Shown here: positions 11,989 to 53,617 of the stretch, in pieces | How the letters are laid out: each line of letters begins with the position of its first letter | Position numbering within the stretch: the first letter of the stretch is position 1 | IMG/VR virus record: IMGVR_UViG_3300042879_003994 | Span: 9,793-73,792 of that record | Length of the DNA stretch: 64,000 nt | Direction: 5' to 3' (one strand) | Origin: a virus | Notes under the pieces: generated by a model | Database searches by the model: none | Told to the model about the DNA's origin: nothing | Seen by the model: only the letters and a program-made list of their open reading frames with translations | Made by a program: the position numbers and the translations under genes

Positions 11989-12504
11989 GTGACGGTTTCG
12001 GAAAGAGATATAGATTTTTTTGCTAAAAAGCTTGGCTTATCACCAGAAAAGACTTTTTTGCTTCTGCAAGATCCAGATTGCTTACCAGAAATACTAGAAA
12101 AAGTATCAGAAGATAATATAGATGGAATCGTAGACATTAGTTTTCCAGTCTTTACAGAATTAACTATAATAAAATATAGCAAAGATTTAGATTACTCATT
12201 TGAAGAAAAGGAATATATATCAGAGACTGTTGGCACAAAATTTTATGATCTTATAGAATATCCACTTCAAAATAAGTATTTTTTTACATTAGAACATAAT
12301 GAAGATACAGCGAGGTCTGTGTTGGTATTTCTTGGATTCTTTTATAAGAGTTTACATAAAACTAGAAGATGTTATCCTTCTGAAAGTATATACTTTAATA
12401 TAGCAAAAAATGGATTTATAAATTCAGATAAAGAAGAGATATCTTATCATCTAAAAGATTGGATTAAAGTATTAAGAATCATACATAATGAAGTTTGGTT
12501 TTAA
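11989..12504 (+). CDS. Conserved hypothetical helical protein, probably host-derived
   Basis: 171-aa ORF; CTGTAA 8 nt upstream; pattern recalls a bacterial uncharacterised family (see findings). Confidence 0.65.
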   Translation: MTVSERDIDFFAKKLGLSPEKTFLLLQDPDCLPEILEKVSEDNIDGIVDISFPVFTELTIIKYSKDLDYSFEEKEYISETVGTKFYDLIEYPLQNKYFFTLEHNEDTARSVLVFLGFFYKSLHKTRRCYPSESIYFNIAKNGFINSDKEEISYHLKDWIKVLRIIHNEVWF

Positions 12505-12509
12505 TACGA

Positions 12510-12836
12510 AATCCTCAAATTATTTAACTTTTCTTTGATATCCAAAAGGGCTTTACCTCCAGATTTTATATATCTGAAGTTGGGTATTATCAATCCAACT
12601 TTTCTTTTGACTCCAAATTTACCGCAATCTCAGCGATAAACGGGCCATCGCACTTATGGGTCAGAGGTAGCTTCGACCACTACATTCTGCGATGCCTATA
12701 GCTACATTCCCTTCAAAAGCCATATTATGTACAAAAGAAGGTTTTAATAGTTGTCAGCCCTTTAGACATTGCTATCTCAAGGATTGATAGTTGATTATTT
12801 GACATCAACAAACTGCTCTAATTGGAAGCTATGTTA
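12510..12836 (-). ncRNA. Candidate large structured ncRNA, family not recognised
   Basis: Large gap with no ORF; GC higher than the flanks; many helices, including a GCAA-capped hairpin; near-consensus promoter just upstream. Confidence 0.65.
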
Positions 12837-12842
12837 ATTTAT

Positions 12843-12871
12843 ATACTATTATTTTTTTATTTTTTTGTCAA
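12843..12871 (-). promoter_or_regulatory. sigma70-type promoter driving the candidate ncRNA
   Basis: TTGACA(12871-12866)-17nt-TAGTAT(12848-12843). Confidence 0.75.
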
Positions 12872-12890
12872 ATCTTTTTATAATATATAA

Positions 12891-13100
12891 ATGGAAATAA
12901 TTAAAAGTAAAGCCAAATGGTCGGTTTATTCTCAAAAGTGCGTAAAGCATTATAATATAAACAATGAGAATATTTATGATGAACCTACTGAATATCCATG
13001 TATTGCTATTCCTCAATTAATATCAGATATAAATGGTTCAAGAGTTAAATTCAGTTTTGTTTATAAAAAAGATTGCCAAAAACTTTTAAAAGCTTTATAA
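12891..13100 (+). CDS. Hypothetical protein
   Basis: 69-aa ORF; TATAAT 6 nt upstream. Confidence 0.6.
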   Translation: MEIIKSKAKWSVYSQKCVKHYNINNENIYDEPTEYPCIAIPQLISDINGSRVKFSFVYKKDCQKLLKAL

Positions 13101-13129: not shown

Positions 13130-13519
13130 GGGCCTGAATTTGGTTTCGATTTTAGTAATAGGAATTAGAATGCAAGTAGAGGTTTAGGTGGGTCTCTTTA
13201 AAAAACCTTAAAAGTATTAACTGCCAAAACAGCCAAATACAAAGGTCATATCTCTGCTAGAGTTTCTCTAGTCGAGGAGACCGTTTCTGTAGCTTAAGTT
13301 CTACAGCGTGATTACCATGACACATCTATTGGATAATTGCGTATTTAGATGTCTCTGATTATAAAGTTTTTTTATTCTTTATTGTCATTGTATTCAAAAT
13401 AAACTCGCTTAGTATGTTTGTTCTTTTCCCTATACAAAGCTAAAAATAAAAAGAAATAAACTTGTAGTATTTTAATTTAAATTATCTAAAAGACCTCGGT
13501 TCAACTCCGAGCAGGTCCA
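13130..13519 (+). ncRNA. ssrA: tmRNA; tag ORF 13223..13297, (A)AKTAKYKGHISARVSLVEETVSVA*
   Basis: 5' GGGCCTGAATTTGGTTTCGA; acceptor stem GGGCCTG/CAGGTCC-A with G3:U; T-arm CTCGG-TTCAACT-CCGAG; TAACT-GCC resume context; CCA not encoded. Confidence 0.92.
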
Positions 13520-13571
13520 AGTAAACTTATGATAAATTCACATAATAATATGTGTATATATATTATAGATT

Positions 13572-47524: not shown

Positions 47525-48895
47525 ATGCCAACATCAAGAGAGATTTATGATTTAATTGTAAGCGGTAATCAATCTTTAAATACCGAATTAAGTTCTTTAA
47601 CGCCCTCTACTCAAGTCTTACTTTACGAAATAGATTTGTCCGAGATTGCGCCAACTATGATTAATTATAATTATAACGGCGAGCAACCTATAAATAATGG
47701 AATCTTCAGAATATATAATGATTATAATATATATAAATTATCCACAAATCCATATGGTACAATAAAATGGCAGCAAAATTATTATTATCCATTTCCAATT
47801 TTTGCAGAGGGATTTGAATATTCATCCGCTGGAAGTTTGCCAACTCCAAGAGTTGCTATATCTAATTTATCTCCAGATTATTCCTCTAATTCTTTCTATA
47901 GATACATTAGAATGCAGATGCAAAGTCTAGGTGATATTGTTGGCGCAAAATTTAGTAGAATTAAAACCTTTTTAAAATATCTAGATGGTGCAAATTTTTC
48001 TGGAAACGTAAATCCATTTAATCCAAATACAGGTCTATATGAAATAGAATTACCAAGGGATATATATTATATTGATAGAAAAACTGTAGAAAACAAAAAT
48101 ATTATTGAATATCAATTAAACACAATACTTGATGTCGAAAATTTAACTCTCCCAGCTAGAACGCTTTATGCTCAAAAATGTCCATTTCAATATAGAGGTG
48201 AAGGATGTGTTTACGAATATAATAGTAGATTAACAGACATACATAGTGGAGTTTATGCTTATACAGTTAATCCAGGATATACAGTTAGTGGGTTACAGAC
48301 TGCTCCACCAGTTGCCACAGATAATGATCAATTATTTATTGGAGGCGTATTTGCCACAGGCGCTGCTGGAACAGCAACAAATACTGCTATCTTTAGGATC
48401 ACTGGTGGATTAGGAAATTCGGGACTTTGGAGAGAAACTTCTCAATACGTATCTGGAGATTTTATATTTTTACAAAATAGAGGTTTAAAATATTATTACG
48501 TTTGTATAAATAACCACACGGCAGACGTATTTAATGCTCCACCAAATATAAATTATTGGGCTTCTGATTCATGTGCGAAAAGTATTAATTCTTGCAGGCT
48601 AAGATGGCTTAAGAACCCAGCCTTCAGACCAGTTATTTGGCCAGCTAATAGGAACGGAGAAAATTTTGTTCAGACAAGAAATCGAATTGAATCTCTTTAT
48701 GGTACAGGAGAAAGATTAAATCTTTGGGTTACTGGTATAAATGGAGTAGCAGTAAATTTCCCAAGAAGACCAGGATGCGAAGATCCTTCTTCTACTAGAG
48801 CGCACGGACTACCAAAAGATGCTTTTGGCAACTATCTAAATGGATTTTTACCATTTGGAGGATTTCCAGGAACAAACCAACCAGCTTCTCAATAA
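47525..48895 (+). CDS. Minor tail protein L-like
   Basis: YPFPI.AEGFE...GSLPTP, YYIDRK..E, CPFQYRGEGC, CAKSINSCRLR, FGGFPG. Confidence 0.88.
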   Translation: MPTSREIYDLIVSGNQSLNTELSSLTPSTQVLLYEIDLSEIAPTMINYNYNGEQPINNGIFRIYNDYNIYKLSTNPYGTIKWQQNYYYPFPIFAEGFEYSSAGSLPTPRVAISNLSPDYSSNSFYRYIRMQMQSLGDIVGAKFSRIKTFLKYLDGANFSGNVNPFNPNTGLYEIELPRDIYYIDRKTVENKNIIEYQLNTILDVENLTLPARTLYAQKCPFQYRGEGCVYEYNSRLTDIHSGVYAYTVNPGYTVSGLQTAPPVATDNDQLFIGGVFATGAAGTATNTAIFRITGGLGNSGLWRETSQYVSGDFIFLQNRGLKYYYVCINNHTADVFNAPPNINYWASDSCAKSINSCRLRWLKNPAFRPVIWPANRNGENFVQTRNRIESLYGTGERLNLWVTGINGVAVNFPRRPGCEDPSSTRAHGLPKDAFGNYLNGFLPFGGFPGTNQPASQ

Positions 48896-50386: not shown

Positions 50387-53300
50387 ATGGGTAATGCAAA
50401 TAAATATGCAGATGGTTTGAGTTTTGTCCTGTTTCCAGGAAATATAGCTTATGGAACAGTTGGATATAACTTTCCAGAAAGTACAGCTCAAGATGATGGC
50501 GGTGGAGCAGGTGGAAACATATCGTTAAGTTTTAGTGGATCAAGAATACCTTTTACTAATAGTCCAACGTTTCTTTATTATAGAGGACCAAGCGGTTATG
50601 CGGCAAATTATACTCCACTAGCAGTAATGACCGGTGGTTTAATACAAAGATTCTTTGAACGAGGCCCATCATTTCCTGGTTCTACATTCACTGGAAATGT
50701 GTTCGGTGCACCAGATTTAAGAACAATATTTGGAGTTAGTCCTAATACAGGCGTAGAAGGCGGTGTATTTCCACAAACAAATGGAGTCTTCATAAATGAA
50801 AGAACGAGAAATGGTCGAGCTTTTAATTCTATATCTCAGGTTAATATATTAGATTTAATTTGTGAAGGACCAATAGAAGGTTTTGTGACTGGAATATATG
50901 TGCCTAATTTGAGTGGTAAAACTACTGGTGACATTGGATATACAAGTGTTACTTTTCAACCATACGAACAAACTTATAGCAATCCAGAAACAAGATCTAT
51001 ATTCTGGGACGATGTACCAATAACAGATTTACAAGGTTTTTTTAATTTCCAATTTGCAGATTATAAATATACATATGGAGAAAAAACAAATGATCATACT
51101 ATCTATAATCCATATTTAAATCTTTACGAAGATAGAAGAGATTATTTTGGTAGACAAGTAGATAGAAATAAAATACCACTACAAACATCTGTTACTAAAG
51201 CAGTTGGAGATACTTTGTATGGATTTTATTTAATTAGTGGAAATAATCAAGTAATTTCACCAAAAACATATTACATATATAATACAGATGTGTCTTCAAT
51301 AAGAATTAATTTTAAGATAAATAGTCTTTATGAACAAATATTAACTGGAATAAATGCTGGTGACGTAGAGAAACATCTACAAATATTTAGGATCATAGTG
51401 TCTAGACTATTAAAAAATGGAGAGACTGTTCTATTGGATACTTCTAAATACTCTCCTTATATTAAGGACTATTATTCTAGGGATGAATTTGGCGCTCAAG
51501 GAAAAATCGCAAATAGCCCAGTAATTGTTCCATACGAAATTACATTAAGACCATATGCTGAAAATTCTCCTTGGTTTGAACTTTTCCCAAATCAAATAGG
51601 ATGGGCAATAGACGTAGTAAAAATGAGTAGAGAAGGCGTTGGTGGAGGATTTTCAACATCTACAACTGTAGATAGCATAACAGAAATTTATTCAGACAGA
51701 TTTACATATCCAGATGCAGCTTTAGTTTATTCAAAATTTGATGCAAGATATTTTAATCAAATACCCACAAGAACATACAAGGTAAGACTACTTAAGGTAA
51801 AAATACCAATTAATTATGATCCAATAACAAGAAATTATAATGGTCCGTGGAATGGACAATTTAAAGTTGCGTGGACAGATAATCCAGCTTGGTGCTTCTA
51901 TGATCTTATAACTAACAATAGATTTGGATTGGGGAAATATATAGATTCAAGTCTGACAGATAAATGGACGCTATATGAGATTGCTCAGTATTGTGATGAA
52001 CTTGTTTCTGACGGAACAGGTGGACTAGAGCCAAGATTTAGATGCAATGTTTATATTGCAAATAAAGAAGAAGCTTACAAAGTATTAAATGATATGGCAA
52101 GTATATTTAGAGCAATTATTTATTACTCAGCAGGACAAATTACTGTTTCTCAAGATTCATTAAAGCAACCTATCTATTTATTTAATAATAGCAATGTAAT
52201 TGAAGGAACGTTTAATTATTCTGACGCTTCAAAGAAATCAAGAAAAACTGTTGCATCAGTTAGATTTAATGATGAAAATGATAATTTTAAACCAGCTATA
52301 GAATATATTGAGGATAAAAATTCAATATTAAAATACGGCATAAGAGAAACAGATATTGTTGCATTTGGTTGCACAAATAAAAATCAAGCTAGAAGAGTCG
52401 GTAAATGGTTATTAACCACACAAAATACTGAAACTGAATTGGTAGATTTCCAAGTCGGTCTAGAAGGTAACTATATAAGACCAGGCGATGTAATATTAAT
52501 TCATGATCAGTATAGAAAAAATGCAGCCTACGCAGGTCGAACTGTAGAACTAACTACTGGCTACGCAGTTTTAGATCTGCCATATAATTTTACTAATACC
52601 TATGCAATAACTGGAGTCAACGCAAATAATTCATTTGTATTTAATATATTAACTCCTACTTATAATTTGAATTTAGGTACAACTTTAGGAGATCTTTATA
52701 GTACCGGATTTGTTGATATAACTTCATCTGGGGTCACAGGATTAAATAGCTCCTTCTTCAGAAGAGGTCAGATTCAAACTATAACAATTAATAATCCTCA
52801 AAATTATTTAACTAGTGGATCTGGTATATATACAAATAATATAAGAATAAATTTCCCATCAAGATTGTCTAATTCTGGGTATAGCTTACCTCAAAATACA
52901 GTCTGGGCAATAGATATTAATCCATCTGGTTATCTGGCAGCTGGCATTGATACAAGATCTCCTATCAATAATCCTTCAAATGCCTTATATCCAGGATATT
53001 ATTTAGAGCCATATCTAAATGAACCTAAAAAATATAGAGTCCTAACAATCTCAGAAAAAGAGCCAGAACTTTTTAACATTAATGCTCTAGAATATAATGA
53101 TCAAAAATATTATGACATAGATAATGTTGCAACTCTAGTCAATGTTCCTGTCAAACCAGGTTTACCAGTTGCGCCAAGTCTTTTCTTGAGCGGAATATTT
53201 AGAAGTCCAACTACAAATTCTTATTTAAGTAACCCAGCTGGAGCGCATTTTGTTACAAATCAAGGTGGAATAAATAGCATAATGTACAACATACAGCCAC

Positions 53301-53617
53301 CAAACAATAATGCTAATAATAGTTTATATTATGTCTATGTAAAGCCAACTTCTAATTTTACAAATTCAACAACTCCAGAGATCTATCTTGCAGATGTTGT
53401 TTCTCCTTTACTAATAAGAACTGGCCTAACCCCATTCAATTGGGCAAGTAATTTGATTCCTCCATTCTTGACACCAACAGGTTCGGGTTTTTACTACTTT
53501 AGGGTATTCGCTGAAAATGCCCTTGGCGAAAGAAGTTCTCCAGCTACAGGCCTATACGTCTTAACTGCCCAAGCTTCTGTTTTTAGCGTTATAGCTTCTG
53601 GATACAATATATATTGA
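50387..53617 (+). CDS. Tail tip / host-specificity protein J-like
   Basis: DLICEGPIEG, W.G.FK.AWTDNPAWCFYDL..NRFGLG, EPRFRCN, GCT...QARR.GKW, FN3-like C-terminus. Confidence 0.9.
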   Translation: MGNANKYADGLSFVLFPGNIAYGTVGYNFPESTAQDDGGGAGGNISLSFSGSRIPFTNSPTFLYYRGPSGYAANYTPLAVMTGGLIQRFFERGPSFPGSTFTGNVFGAPDLRTIFGVSPNTGVEGGVFPQTNGVFINERTRNGRAFNSISQVNILDLICEGPIEGFVTGIYVPNLSGKTTGDIGYTSVTFQPYEQTYSNPETRSIFWDDVPITDLQGFFNFQFADYKYTYGEKTNDHTIYNPYLNLYEDRRDYFGRQVDRNKIPLQTSVTKAVGDTLYGFYLISGNNQVISPKTYYIYNTDVSSIRINFKINSLYEQILTGINAGDVEKHLQIFRIIVSRLLKNGETVLLDTSKYSPYIKDYYSRDEFGAQGKIANSPVIVPYEITLRPYAENSPWFELFPNQIGWAIDVVKMSREGVGGGFSTSTTVDSITEIYSDRFTYPDAALVYSKFDARYFNQIPTRTYKVRLLKVKIPINYDPITRNYNGPWNGQFKVAWTDNPAWCFYDLITNNRFGLGKYIDSSLTDKWTLYEIAQYCDELVSDGTGGLEPRFRCNVYIANKEEAYKVLNDMASIFRAIIYYSAGQITVSQDSLKQPIYLFNNSNVIEGTFNYSDASKKSRKTVASVRFNDENDNFKPAIEYIEDKNSILKYGIRETDIVAFGCTNKNQARRVGKWLLTTQNTETELVDFQVGLEGNYIRPGDVILIHDQYRKNAAYAGRTVELTTGYAVLDLPYNFTNTYAITGVNANNSFVFNILTPTYNLNLGTTLGDLYSTGFVDITSSGVTGLNSSFFRRGQIQTITINNPQNYLTSGSGIYTNNIRINFPSRLSNSGYSLPQNTVWAIDINPSGYLAAGIDTRSPINNPSNALYPGYYLEPYLNEPKKYRVLTISEKEPELFNINALEYNDQKYYDIDNVATLVNVPVKPGLPVAPSLFLSGIFRSPTTNSYLSNPAGAHFVTNQGGINSIMYNIQPPNNNANNSLYYVYVKPTSNFTNSTTPEIYLADVVSPLLIRTGLTPFNWASNLIPPFLTPTGSGFYYFRVFAENALGERSSPATGLYVLTAQASVFSVIASGYNIY

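What the first reader, a model, noticed from the sequence alone, without database searches (positions are those of the whole stretch)
12510..12871. Previously unrecognised ~330-nt structured RNA with its own near-consensus promoter, next to tmRNA
Seen on the minus strand, downstream of TTGACA-17-TAGTAT: hairpins GTTGAT/ATCAAC, AGATA-GCAA-TGTCT (GNRA loop) and CCTTC/GAAGG; a nested domain CATCGCA/TGCGATG enclosing CAGA/TCTG and GTAGT/GCTAC; further hairpins TTTATCGC/GCGGTAAA, AGTTGG/CCAACT and CAGAT/ATCTG; long-range closures AAAGGGCT/AGCCCTTT and AATCCTTGA/TTGAGGATT; and an imperfect 21-nt direct repeat (TTTGGA-G-TCAAAAGAAAAGTT at 12617-12597, TTTGGA-TA-TCAAAGAAAAGTT at 12546-12526). G-U pairs and the GNRA loop agree with the promoter strand. 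It lacks RNase P and group I signatures and does not look like 6S or SRP. Inference: an early, abundant phage ncRNA, such as a ribozyme, scaffold or protein sponge with two repeated binding sites.
Basis: partly seen in the sequence, partly recalled or inferred. Interest (0 to 1): 0.8.

Follow-up and report, generated by a model that had tools for sequence, protein, structure and literature searches.

The report
New knotted RNA gene, lake phages
The gene-free gap beside this uncultured lake phage's tmRNA is a real, separately transcribed gene for a roughly 310-base, triple-pseudoknotted non-coding RNA that fits no catalogued family. It is more conserved than its neighbours and carries two identical purine-rich tracts, but its job is still unknown.

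Summary
The finding is real. Window 12835-12526 (minus strand) is a stand-alone gene for a ~310-nt ncRNA. Its promoter is TTGACA-17-TAnnAT.

- **Relatives:** I found 87 copies (53 distinct) in three clades of uncultured freshwater phage contigs.
- **Conservation:** the RNA is more conserved than the flanking ORFs and the tmRNA.
- **Structure test:** on a plain MAFFT alignment, a hand-curated structure is 98% paired, against 32-49% when partners are slid. 26 of 55 pairs show compensatory changes.
- **Strand:** G-U pairs outnumber A-C cells 217 to 24, which fixes the minus strand.
- **Fold:** two 5' hairpins, then a long-range helix closing a five-way junction, plus three pseudoknots. The fold exposes two invariant purine-rich tracts.
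about half of its helices hold; five do not, and it missed the main long-range helix and two pseudoknots.
- **Known families:** no Rfam family matches. RNase P, two-piece tmRNA, glnA riboswitch and ROOL/GOLLD membership were tested and not met.
- **Function:** untested. My best guess (about 0.4) is a folded platform that presents the twin tracts to a partner.

Other agents of this scan already reported this same family from other genomes. I found no public description.

The parts
12866..12871 (-). -35 hexamer TTGACA
   Evidence: Found in all 52 untruncated upstream regions, while the spacer sequence drifts.
12843..12848 (-). -10 hexamer TAGTAT
   Evidence: The spacer is 17 nt in all 45 relatives that could be parsed. 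Eight different hexamers occur, all of the form TAnnAT. Conservation of the RNA body starts 6-10 nt downstream.
12526..12835 (-). Conserved ncRNA body (about 310 nt; both ends inferred from where conservation starts and stops)
   Evidence: Conservation begins at ACATAG (12834-12829) and ends after AAAGAAAAGTT (12526) in three clades. CM R1 scores 391 bits here and 126-175 bits in clades 2 and 3.
12815..12829 (-). Hairpin H1: GCUU (12829-12826) with GAGC (12818-12815). Loop nucleotides CCAA (12825-12822) form PK3.
   Evidence: 100% of cells paired; 3 of 4 pairs change on both sides.
12790..12809 (-). Hairpin H2: GUUGA (12809-12805) with UCAAC (12794-12790)
   Evidence: A hairpin is predicted at this place in all three clades, with different sequences. 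99% paired in clade 1.
12781..12789 (-). Long-range helix LR, 5' strand UAUCAAUCC
   Evidence: Pairs with 12596-12588. Cofolding recovers this helix in every sequence of all three clades, at 9-19 bp and with different sequences. Within-clade compensations occur in L082, L049, L078, L021 and L023.
12747..12775 (-). Hairpin H3: AUAG/CUAU plus UGUC/GACA. Its loop carries the PK1 5' strand AAGGGCU (12762-12756).
   Evidence: 96-100% paired, with U-A to C-G and A-U to G-C swaps.
12710..12741 (-). Hairpin H4: CCUUC (12741-12737) with GAAGG (12714-12710), with a large loop
   Evidence: Stem variants seen: CCUUU/AAAGG, CCUUA/UAAGG, CCUCA/UGAGG, UUCCC/GGGAA, AUUGC/GCAAU, GUCAC/GUGAU (read from the alignments).
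12700..12705 (-). PK2 5' strand GUAGCU
   Evidence: Pairs with AGCUAC (12672-12667) inside the HC loop. 98% paired; 2 pairs change on both sides.
12646..12694 (-). Long hairpin HB-HC: CAUCGCA/UGCGAUG, AUG/CAU and GGUCG/UGACC. Its loop carries the PK2 3' strand (12672-12667).
   Evidence: 98-100% paired; 7 pairs change on both sides.
12642..12646 (-). 'Site 1' GGCCC, a second sequence complementary to the H3 loop
   Evidence: 98% of cells can pair with columns 87-91; 2 pairs change on both sides, probably in one evolutionary event.
12618..12640 (-). Hairpin H7: UUUAUCGC/GCGGUAAA
   Evidence: 6 of 8 pairs change on both sides.
12598..12614 (-). Purine-rich tract 1: GGAGUCAAAAGAAAAGU
   Evidence: Invariant in 52 sequences except for one C/U position.
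12588..12596 (-). Long-range helix LR, 3' strand GGAUUGAUA
12555..12580 (-). Hairpin P3L: ACUUC-AGAU / AUCU-(G)-GAGGU
   Evidence: Predicted in all clades with variable sequence. The outer 4 pairs are 98% paired.
12546..12552 (-). PK1 3' strand AGCCCUU, preceded by the invariant GAGGUAAAG
   Evidence: 99.5% paired with 12762-12756. 4 of 7 pairs change on both sides, including changes within clade 3.
12527..12545 (-). PK3 3' strand UUGG (12545-12542), overlapping purine-rich tract 2 GGAUAUCAAAGAAAAGU (12543-12527)
   Evidence: CCAA/UUGG in clade 1, CCUA/UAGG in clade 3 and UCUA/UGGG in clade 2; 99% paired. The tract is invariant except for the same C/U position as tract 1.
12576..12612 (+). Terminator-like hairpin plus T-run on the opposite strand. 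It could end the ORF171 transcript inside the RNA gene.
   Evidence: Consensus scan only. The hairpin is lost in L069 and L083 and absent in clades 2 and 3.

Best explanation
Window 12835-12526 (minus strand) is a self-contained gene for a trans-acting ncRNA of about 310 nt, belonging to a new family.

**Shown**
- It has its own sigma-70-type promoter.
- It starts with two hairpins, H1 and H2.
- A long-range helix (LR) then closes a five-way junction holding H3, H4, HB-HC and H7.
- Three pseudoknots are present: H3 loop to 3' region, an upstream junction strand to the HC loop, and H1 loop to 3' tail. They tie the 3' end back onto the 5' domain.
- Two purine-rich 17-mers stay unpaired in this model and invariant.

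**Inferred**
- It is made early by the host RNA polymerase.
- It folds into a compact body whose role is to display the twin tracts.
- It works by binding two copies, or a dimer, of one partner. The most likely partner is a single-strand RNA-binding protein of the host or the phage. In that case the RNA is a scaffold or sponge rather than a base-pairing regulator or an enzyme.

I am about 0.9 sure that this is a real structured RNA gene, and about 0.35-0.4 sure of the scaffold/sponge mechanism.
For: **Gene and strand**
- The gap has no ORF and is richer in GC than its surroundings.
- In relatives the gap is 86-99% identical, while ORF171 protein is 73-94% identical. For example, L026's gap is 89% identical, against 80% for the tmRNA, 80% for ORF69 and 76% for ORF171.
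- TTGACA and the 17-nt spacing are kept while the spacer letters change.
- There are 217 G-U cells against 24 A-C cells, so pairing is 98.0% on the minus strand and 91.2% on the plus strand.

**Structure**
- On a MAFFT alignment not fitted to any structure, 98.0% of cells are paired against 32-49% for slid partners. 26 of 55 pairs and 278 cells change on both sides, and 0 of 500 shuffles reach this.
- LR, H2 and P3L are recovered by cofolding in all three clades with unrelated sequences.

**Trans action**
- In clade 1 the gene converges on ORF171.
- In clade 3 it sits upstream of nrdA in the same direction.
- It always carries its own promoter.

**Twin tracts**
- They are invariant in 52 sequences while the helices around them covary.
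- Their single variable base is C,C or U,U and never mixed. This needs at least two separate joint switches on the tree.
- The window holds no complementary target for the tracts.

**Weak expression hint**
- Metatranscriptome contigs from two studies lie inside the RNA body, at 12588-12808 and 12630-12843.
Against: - No partner has been identified, and no protein gene is consistently adjacent. ORF69 is missing in L079, L082, L111 and L113, and the flanking ORFs have no informative family.
- A three-pseudoknot fold is more elaborate than known protein sponges need.
- Part of tract 2 (its GG) is used in PK3, so that tract is not wholly free.
- Depth in RNA libraries is low, about 4 against 100-250 for the tmRNA. 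One contig continues into the promoter, so it may be DNA.
- The joint C/U change rests on only about two events.
- A second complement to the H3 loop fits self-association or a conformational switch better than a simple platform does.
Confidence: 0.4

Rival explanations
1. An RNA-only homo-oligomer, like OLE, ROOL and GOLLD. Copies of the RNA would bridge each other. One bridge would be the H3 loop of one molecule kissing 'site 1' (GGCCC) of another, while PK1 holds the loop's cis partner. A second bridge would be a symmetric purine-purine helix between the twin tracts. The assembly, not a protein complex, would be the working form.
For: - Two separate sequences are complementary to the same H3 loop, and both track it between clades.
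- The twin tracts change to the same letter together. That is the signature of like-with-like pairing, not Watson-Crick pairing.
- Precedent: OLE has a conserved symmetric bridge of four A-A pairs. ROOL and GOLLD are phage RNAs that assemble through kissing loops and A-minor contacts (bioRxiv 10.1101/2024.12.08.627333).
- Like ROOL and GOLLD, this RNA has several pseudoknots and no known protein partner.
Against: - The site 1 covariation is probably a single event on the clade 2 stem, and in clade 3 one of its five pairs is A-A.
- At about 310 nt the RNA is much smaller than ROOL or GOLLD.
- Nothing here tests oligomeric state.
- Site 1 could equally be a co-transcriptional folding intermediate.
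Confidence: 0.2
2. A base-pairing regulator. The twin purine tracts would be two copies of a seed that pairs with pyrimidine-rich sequences in host or phage RNAs, with the folded body serving for stability.
For: - The single-stranded segments are invariant while the helices covary.
- Duplicated seeds are known in bacterial sRNAs; this rests on my own knowledge and was not tested here.
Against: - There is no complement to the tract in 64 kb of the phage. The only hits are the gene itself and one 3-mismatch site at chance level.
- Pairing with the neighbouring tmRNA is no better than for shuffled sequence.
- A 310-nt triple pseudoknot is far more than an sRNA needs.
- The host is unknown, so host targets could not be searched.
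Confidence: 0.15
3. A ribozyme, possibly with an RNase P-like core. The invariant GAGG(U/G)AAAG(U)C, preceded by a hairpin and followed by a long-range helix, would recall the P3, CR-I and P4 elements of RNase P.
For: - The motif is invariant.
- A P4-like pseudoknot (PK1), a P3-like hairpin and a P2-like helix (LR) are all supported.
- The fold complexity is typical of large ribozymes.
- The phage carries tmRNA and tRNA genes that need 5' processing.
Against: - No RNase P model gives even a weak local hit at E<=10.
- The strand order is permuted relative to RNase P.
- The bases before the P4-like 3' strand are variable, where RNase P has conserved adenosines.
- No specificity-domain motifs were recognised.
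- The resemblance is 11 nt recalled from memory.
Confidence: 0.07
4. Not an RNA gene in its own right, but a cis element such as a convergent or bidirectional terminator, an antisense to the 3' end of ORF171, or a DNA-level site.
For: - A plus-strand terminator-like hairpin with a T-run lies inside the gene at 12576-12612.
- The RNA strand has no intrinsic terminator.
Against: - Covariation and the G-U bias fit a folded minus-strand RNA.
- The plus-strand hairpin is not conserved.
- The gene moves to another place and orientation in clade 3 with its promoter intact.
Confidence: 0.03

Closest known systems
ROOL (RF03087) and GOLLD (RF01998) RNAs
   Same: All are phage- or prophage-encoded stand-alone ncRNAs with several pseudoknots. 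None has a known protein partner or known function, and all are often found in 'RNA islands' near tRNA-type genes.
   Different: There is no sequence or covariance-model similarity. This RNA is about 310 nt, against about 580 nt for ROOL and over 800 nt for GOLLD. The helices are different, and oligomerisation is untested here.
OLE RNA
   Same: Both are large conserved folds built on a multi-way junction. OLE has highly conserved adenosines in a symmetric A-A bridge. The twin A-rich tracts here change together to the same letter.
   Different: OLE is bacterial, about 600 nt, and has known protein partners (OapA/B/C). There is no model match, and no A-A pairing has been shown here.
Bacterial RNase P RNA (RF00010/RF00011)
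   Same: Both show a GAGG-AAAG-(U)C motif after a hairpin, leading into a long-range pseudoknot helix. This gives a P2/P3/P4-like local topology.
   Different: The strand order is permuted, the J2/4-type conserved adenosines are absent, no S-domain is recognised, and there is no CM hit. This RNA is not a member.
Protein-sequestering RNAs (CsrB/RsmZ type, 6S RNA)
   Same: Both have repeated, invariant single-stranded sites displayed on a folded RNA and act in trans. This is the working model proposed here.
   Different: There are only two sites. The motif is A-rich, not GGA in hairpin loops. The fold is far more knotted, and no partner is known.
Phage tmRNA and its glutamine (glnA) riboswitch in Melnitz-type and pelagimyophages
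   Same: Both are structured RNA genes that lie beside a phage tmRNA in aquatic phages of streamlined hosts (PMC9004378).
   Different: No tRNA-like domain or tag frame was found. There are no tmRNA-clan or glnA hits in the gap. HTVC008M has no copy, and Mosig gives only a chance-level 7.8-bit match.

Membership tests
Any Rfam 15 family | Covariance-model score at or above the family's gathering threshold | tested here: not met
   The only hit in the window is the tmRNA at 13130-13520. Over 12300-13100 at E<=10 there are four junk hits of 15-19 bits.
Bacterial RNase P RNA | Match to RF00010/RF00011 | tested here: not met
   No hit even at E<=10 with lax filters.
Bacterial RNase P RNA | P4 helix formed between CR-I (GAGGAAAGUCC) and CR-V | tested here: inconclusive
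   A covarying long-range helix (PK1) follows the invariant GAGG(U/G)AAAG(U)C. The likeness to CR-I is recalled from memory, not scored.
Bacterial RNase P RNA | Conserved A-rich J2/4 before the P4 3' strand, and the canonical 5'-to-3' order P2-P3-P4 ... P2'-P4' | tested here: not met
   The bases before AAGGGCU vary (UCUA, UCCC, UCAU, CUGU, UCUUCG). The order here is LR5'-PK1 5' ... LR3'-hairpin-PK1 3', which is permuted.
tmRNA, including two-piece permuted forms | tRNA-like acceptor and T-arm domain plus a tag reading frame | tested here: not met
   ARAGORN finds only the neighbouring one-piece tmRNA. There is no tmRNA-clan hit in the gap.
ROOL / GOLLD | Match to RF03087 or RF01998 | tested here: not met
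ROOL / GOLLD / OLE kind (RNA-only homo-oligomers) | Defined homo-oligomer formed by the RNA alone | not testable with these tools
   There are only indirect hints: a second complement to the H3 loop and same-letter co-change of the twin tracts.
Glutamine (glnA / Downstream-peptide) riboswitch next to phage tmRNA | Match to the Rfam models | tested here: not met
   The lead came from PMC9004378.
Cis-regulatory leader or riboswitch in general | Constant position upstream of one regulated gene | tested here: not met
   In clades 1 and 2 the gene converges on ORF171. In clade 3 it is upstream of nrdA.
Protein-coding gene | A conserved open frame | tested here: not met
   The longest ORF is 34 aa. 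Hairpin lengths differ between clades by amounts that are not multiples of three, and no start codon is shared.

The most novel reading that the evidence does not exclude
The RNA may be the smallest natural RNA-only homo-oligomer yet seen. In this reading, the H3 loop pairs in cis with the 3' strand (PK1) and in trans with 'site 1' of a neighbouring copy. The twin purine tracts would form a symmetric like-with-like (A-A, G-G, Y-Y) helix. That would explain why both tracts are invariant and switch C to U together. It would be a new building principle, related to but distinct from OLE, ROOL and GOLLD.
Probability: 0.12. Interest if true: 0.85.

Novelty: new variant of a known kind. Interest (0 to 1): 0.62.

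Why it matters
Large, intricately folded RNAs of unknown function are rare. Historically they have turned out to be ribozymes, sensors or, recently, self-assembling cages.

This one has several practical advantages:
- At about 310 nt it is small enough for probing and cryo-EM.
- It has a clear promoter.
- Its three pseudoknots are backed by covariation.
- The twin tracts, which change in step, give an unusually sharp handle for experiments.

It is more conserved than the tmRNA and the protein genes around it, in phages that are widespread in lake metagenomes. So it probably matters for infection of an abundant freshwater host. Finding its partner or activity would add a new functional RNA class to phage biology.

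Tried and rejected
- **Single-sequence folding:** both strands fold about equally well (z -2.0 and -2.5), so it is useless for strand or reality.
- **RNAalifold alone:** it forced PK1 in as a nested helix and so lost H3 and LR. I replaced it with a curated structure.
- **Naive pairwise covariation:** swamped by the three-clade phylogeny.
- **CM R1:** built with a mis-typed P3L helix. I used it only for searching. Its alignment A3 misaligns H2 and LR between clades and was not used for counts.
- **Pairing with the neighbouring tmRNA:** -96.6 kcal/mol against a shuffled mean of -99.5, so no signal.
- **Targets complementary to the tracts in the window:** none.
- **ENE-like U-rich clamp in H4:** the U-runs are not conserved; most relatives have AUUU/AAA there.
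- **Short peptide from UUG or AUG after GGAGGU:** not conserved across clades.
- **Type III antitoxin mimic or anti-CRISPR repeat mimic:** only two 17-nt repeats, not tandem full units. I did not pursue this.
- **GenBank phages by blastn:** no match. HTVC008M has no CM hit, and Mosig has only a 7.8-bit match at E 0.7.
- **Genome contigs pattern scan:** the pattern was too loose. 119 of 120 loci are chance matches. The one real hit (L183/L266) is a high-GC Actinomycetota MAG contig whose last ~95 nt are clade 1 RNA. It is probably an assembly chimera and says nothing about the host.
- **Second motif probe in viral contigs:** it found only known members, three truncated clade 1 copies and coding-sequence chance hits. 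No fourth clade turned up.
- **RNA libraries:** no cover over 12300-12587 or over ORF171 in any of the four runs. Cover of the RNA body is thin, and one contig reaches the promoter. This is neither proof of expression nor of its absence.
- **csRNA catalogue of IMG/VR (PMC10690425):** its models are 29-151 nt and its supplements are not held. A fragment of this RNA could be listed there; I could not check.
- **Link to tmRNA:** relatives G001-G004 have a tmRNA but no copy of this RNA in their partial contigs. The adjacency is therefore not obligatory.

Full report
**Observation**

The stretch 12505-12890 lies between ORF171 (11989-12504, +) and a small ORF69 (12891-13100, +). ORF69 precedes a one-piece tmRNA (13130-13520, +; Rfam 106 bits). 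The gap has no ORF above 34 aa. Its GC rises to 38-46% in a genome of about 30%. On the minus strand sit TTGACA (12871-12866), a 17-nt spacer and TAGTAT (12848-12843).

Folding one sequence does not help. Both strands fold somewhat better than shuffles (z -2.0 and -2.5). Promoter-like hexamers are common in this AT-rich DNA, with 23 found against 14.8 expected. Whether this is more than chance had to be settled by comparison with relatives.

**Relatives**

- ORF171 brought in 37 related viral contigs.
- A motif scan with GGAGTYAAAAGAAAAGT brought in more.
- nhmmer then found 87 full copies, 53 of them distinct, in three clades.
- A second, independent motif probe on the H3 region found no further clade.
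- The runs that hold this DNA are lake and other freshwater metagenomes from many studies.
- GenBank phages have no copy by blastn. HTVC008M gives no CM hit, and Mosig gives only a chance-level match of 7.8 bits at E 0.7.

The gap is more conserved than its surroundings. It is 86-99% identical where ORF171 protein is 73-94% identical. In L026 the gap is 89% identical, against 80% for the tmRNA, 80% for ORF69 and 76% for ORF171.

**Promoter, ends and strand**

- TTGACA is present in all 52 untruncated upstream regions.
- In the 45 I could parse, the spacer is always 17 nt, but its letters drift.
- The -10 takes eight different forms, all TAnnAT.
- Conservation of the body begins 6-10 nt later, at ACATAG.
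- Conservation stops after AAAGAAAAGTT, at 12526.
- The RNA is therefore about 310 nt (12835-12526). Both ends are inferred from conservation, not mapped.
- In the curated structure there are 217 G-U cells against 24 A-C cells. Pairing is 98.0% on the minus strand and 91.2% on the plus strand.

**Structure**

I derived helices from stacks of consistent column pairs, per-clade folds and cofolding of the variable segments. In 5'-to-3' order, in window coordinates:

| Element | Coordinates |
|---|---|
| H1 | 12829-26 / 12818-15 |
| H2 | 12809-05 / 12794-90 |
| LR, 5' strand | 12789-81 |
| H3 | 12775-72 and 12768-65 / 12755-52 and 12750-47 |
| H4 | 12741-37 / 12714-10 |
| PK2, 5' strand | 12705-00 |
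| HB | 12694-88 / 12652-46 |
| short helix within HB-HC | 12685-83 / 12658-56 |
| HC | 12678-74 / 12663-59 |
| PK2, 3' strand (in the HC loop) | 12672-67 |
| H7 | 12640-33 / 12625-18 |
| tract 1 | 12614-12598 |
| LR, 3' strand | 12596-88 |
| P3L hairpin | 12580-72 / 12564-55 |
| PK1, 3' strand (pairs with H3 loop 12762-56) | 12552-46 |
| PK3, 3' strand (pairs with H1 loop 12825-22) | 12545-42 |
| tract 2 | 12543-27 |

I tested 55 of these pairs on the plain MAFFT alignment A1 (52 sequences, not fitted to any structure). I left out H2, LR and H4, whose registers differ between clades.
- 98.0% of cells are paired, against 32-49% when partners are slid by 1-3 columns.
- 26 pairs and 278 cells change on both sides.
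- 0 of 500 shuffles reach these values.

LR is 9 bp in clade 1, up to 19 bp in clade 2 and about 12 bp in clade 3, with unrelated sequences. It also has within-clade compensations, for example UAUCGAUCC/GGAUCGAUA in L082. PK1 also covaries inside clade 3 (GAAGGCU/AGCCUUC, CAGGCU/AGCCUG, AUAGGCU/AGCCUAU). PK3 changes from CCAA/UUGG to CCUA/UAGG in clade 3.

- Six hold: GTTGA/TCAAC, CCTTC/GAAGG, CATCGCA/TGCGATG, TTTATCGC/GCGGTAAA, CAGAT/ATCTG, and AAAGGGCT/AGCCCTTT as a pseudoknot.
- Five do not: the 'GNRA' hairpin AGATA/TGTCT, CAGA/TCTG, GTAGT/GCTAC, AGTTGG/CCAACT and AATCCTTGA/TTGAGGATT.
- It missed H1, LR, PK2 and PK3.

**Twin tracts and a second loop complement**

GGAGUYAAAAGAAAAGU and GGAUAUYAAAGAAAAGU are invariant in all 52 sequences except for Y. 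Y is C in both tracts (41 sequences) or U in both (11), and never mixed. The tree needs at least two separate joint switches, one of them on a short branch inside clade 1.

A Watson-Crick partner would not give same-letter co-change. A shared reader or like-with-like pairing would.

Separately, GGCCC at 12646-42 is complementary to the same H3 loop that forms PK1. It changes with that loop between clades (98% paired, two pairs changed on both sides), though probably through a single event.

**What it is not**

- Rfam 15 gives nothing in the gap at gathering threshold, and only 15-19-bit noise at E<=10. RNase P, the tmRNA clan, glnA riboswitches, ROOL, GOLLD and cobalamin riboswitches are therefore not matched.
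- The invariant GAGG(U/G)AAAG(U)C, sitting after a hairpin and before a long-range helix, recalls RNase P CR-I, P3 and P4. However, the order is permuted and the bases before the partner strand vary.
- I followed a lead from related marine phages that carry two-piece tmRNAs and glutamine riboswitches (PMC9004378). Neither is present here.
- It is not a cis leader. In clades 1 and 2 it converges on ORF171. In clade 3 it sits upstream of nrdA in the same direction, 6.5-16 kb from the tmRNA, with its promoter intact.
- Some relatives have the tmRNA but no copy of this RNA in their partial contigs.

**Expression**

Four metatranscriptome runs were laid on the locus as contigs only.
- One study has a 221-nt contig at 12588-12808.
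- Another has a 248-nt contig at 12630-12843, but it continues into a relative's promoter.
- Depth is about 4, against 100-250 for the tmRNA.

This is a weak hint at best. DNA carry-over is not excluded.

**Mechanism**

Shown: a conserved, independently promoted, minus-strand RNA with a five-way junction and three pseudoknots that tie the 3' tail to the 5' domain, and two invariant purine tracts left unpaired.

Inferred: it is made early by the host polymerase and acts in trans. The fold exists to present the twin tracts to two copies, or a dimer, of one partner (about 0.35-0.4).

Rivals:
- an RNA-only oligomer in the manner of OLE, ROOL and GOLLD (0.2; precedent in bioRxiv 10.1101/2024.12.08.627333);
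- a base-pairing regulator (0.15);
- a ribozyme (0.07);
- a cis or DNA element (0.03).

**Novelty**

I found no public description. The IMG/VR catalogue of candidate structured RNAs holds only 29-151-nt models, and I could not search it.

Within this scan, the same family was already reported from other genomes by other agents. They described it as a roughly 310-nt, multi-pseudoknotted RNA beside the tmRNA, with ROOL and GOLLD as the closest known. Their notes led me to look for the third pseudoknot and for the co-change of the tracts, and I tested both here.

Several of those notes call the phage 'T4-like'. That is not shown for this window. The tail genes here hit lambda-type minor-tail and J families, and only nrdA points to pelagimyophages and cyanomyophages.

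Noticed in passing
window 13130-13520 (+): One-piece tmRNA with a 24-residue tag, AKTAKYKGHISARVSLVEETVSVA. Contigs over it in four freshwater metatranscriptomes have depths of about 8-250. Clade 2 phages carry a different tag, AKPAKLKGSFSLRVSHKK....
   Followed up: partly
window 12576-12612 (+): A terminator-like hairpin with a T-run on the plus strand lies inside the RNA gene. It is the antisense of tract 1 and the bases after it, and it could end the ORF171 transcript. It is not conserved outside part of clade 1.
   Followed up: partly
window 12891-13100 (+): ORF69, a small ORF with no family, lies between the RNA promoter and the tmRNA. It is kept at 77-92% nt identity in most clade 1 relatives. 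It is missing in L079, L082, L111 and L113, where the tmRNA lies about 70-85 nt from the end of the RNA match.
   Followed up: partly
L266 (G008:C416:7756-9512), contig RGER01000055.1: A high-GC contig of an Actinomycetota MAG ends in about 95 nt that are near-identical to the 3' part of the clade 1 RNA. This is most likely an assembly chimera at a contig end, not a host clue.
   Followed up: partly
window 47525-48892 and 50387-53614 (+): The tail genes match lambda-type 'minor tail protein' and 'central tail fiber J' PHROGs (E 2e-41 and 1e-140). Relatives' contigs reach about 172 kb. The phage is therefore large, but 'T4-like' is not shown.
   Followed up: no
L264 (G006:C1:43808-47124) and L044: In clade 3 the RNA gene lies about 135 nt upstream of nrdA on the same strand. 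In the window it lies downstream of the nrdAB-ORF171 block on the opposite strand. So the gene has moved from one end of that block to the other, with its promoter.
   Followed up: partly
L010, L011, L014, L015 (positions about 4513 onward): In these relatives, minus-strand protein genes directly follow ORF171. Their contigs hold a tmRNA elsewhere but no copy of the RNA. The end of ORF171 is thus a recurrent rearrangement point.
   Followed up: partly
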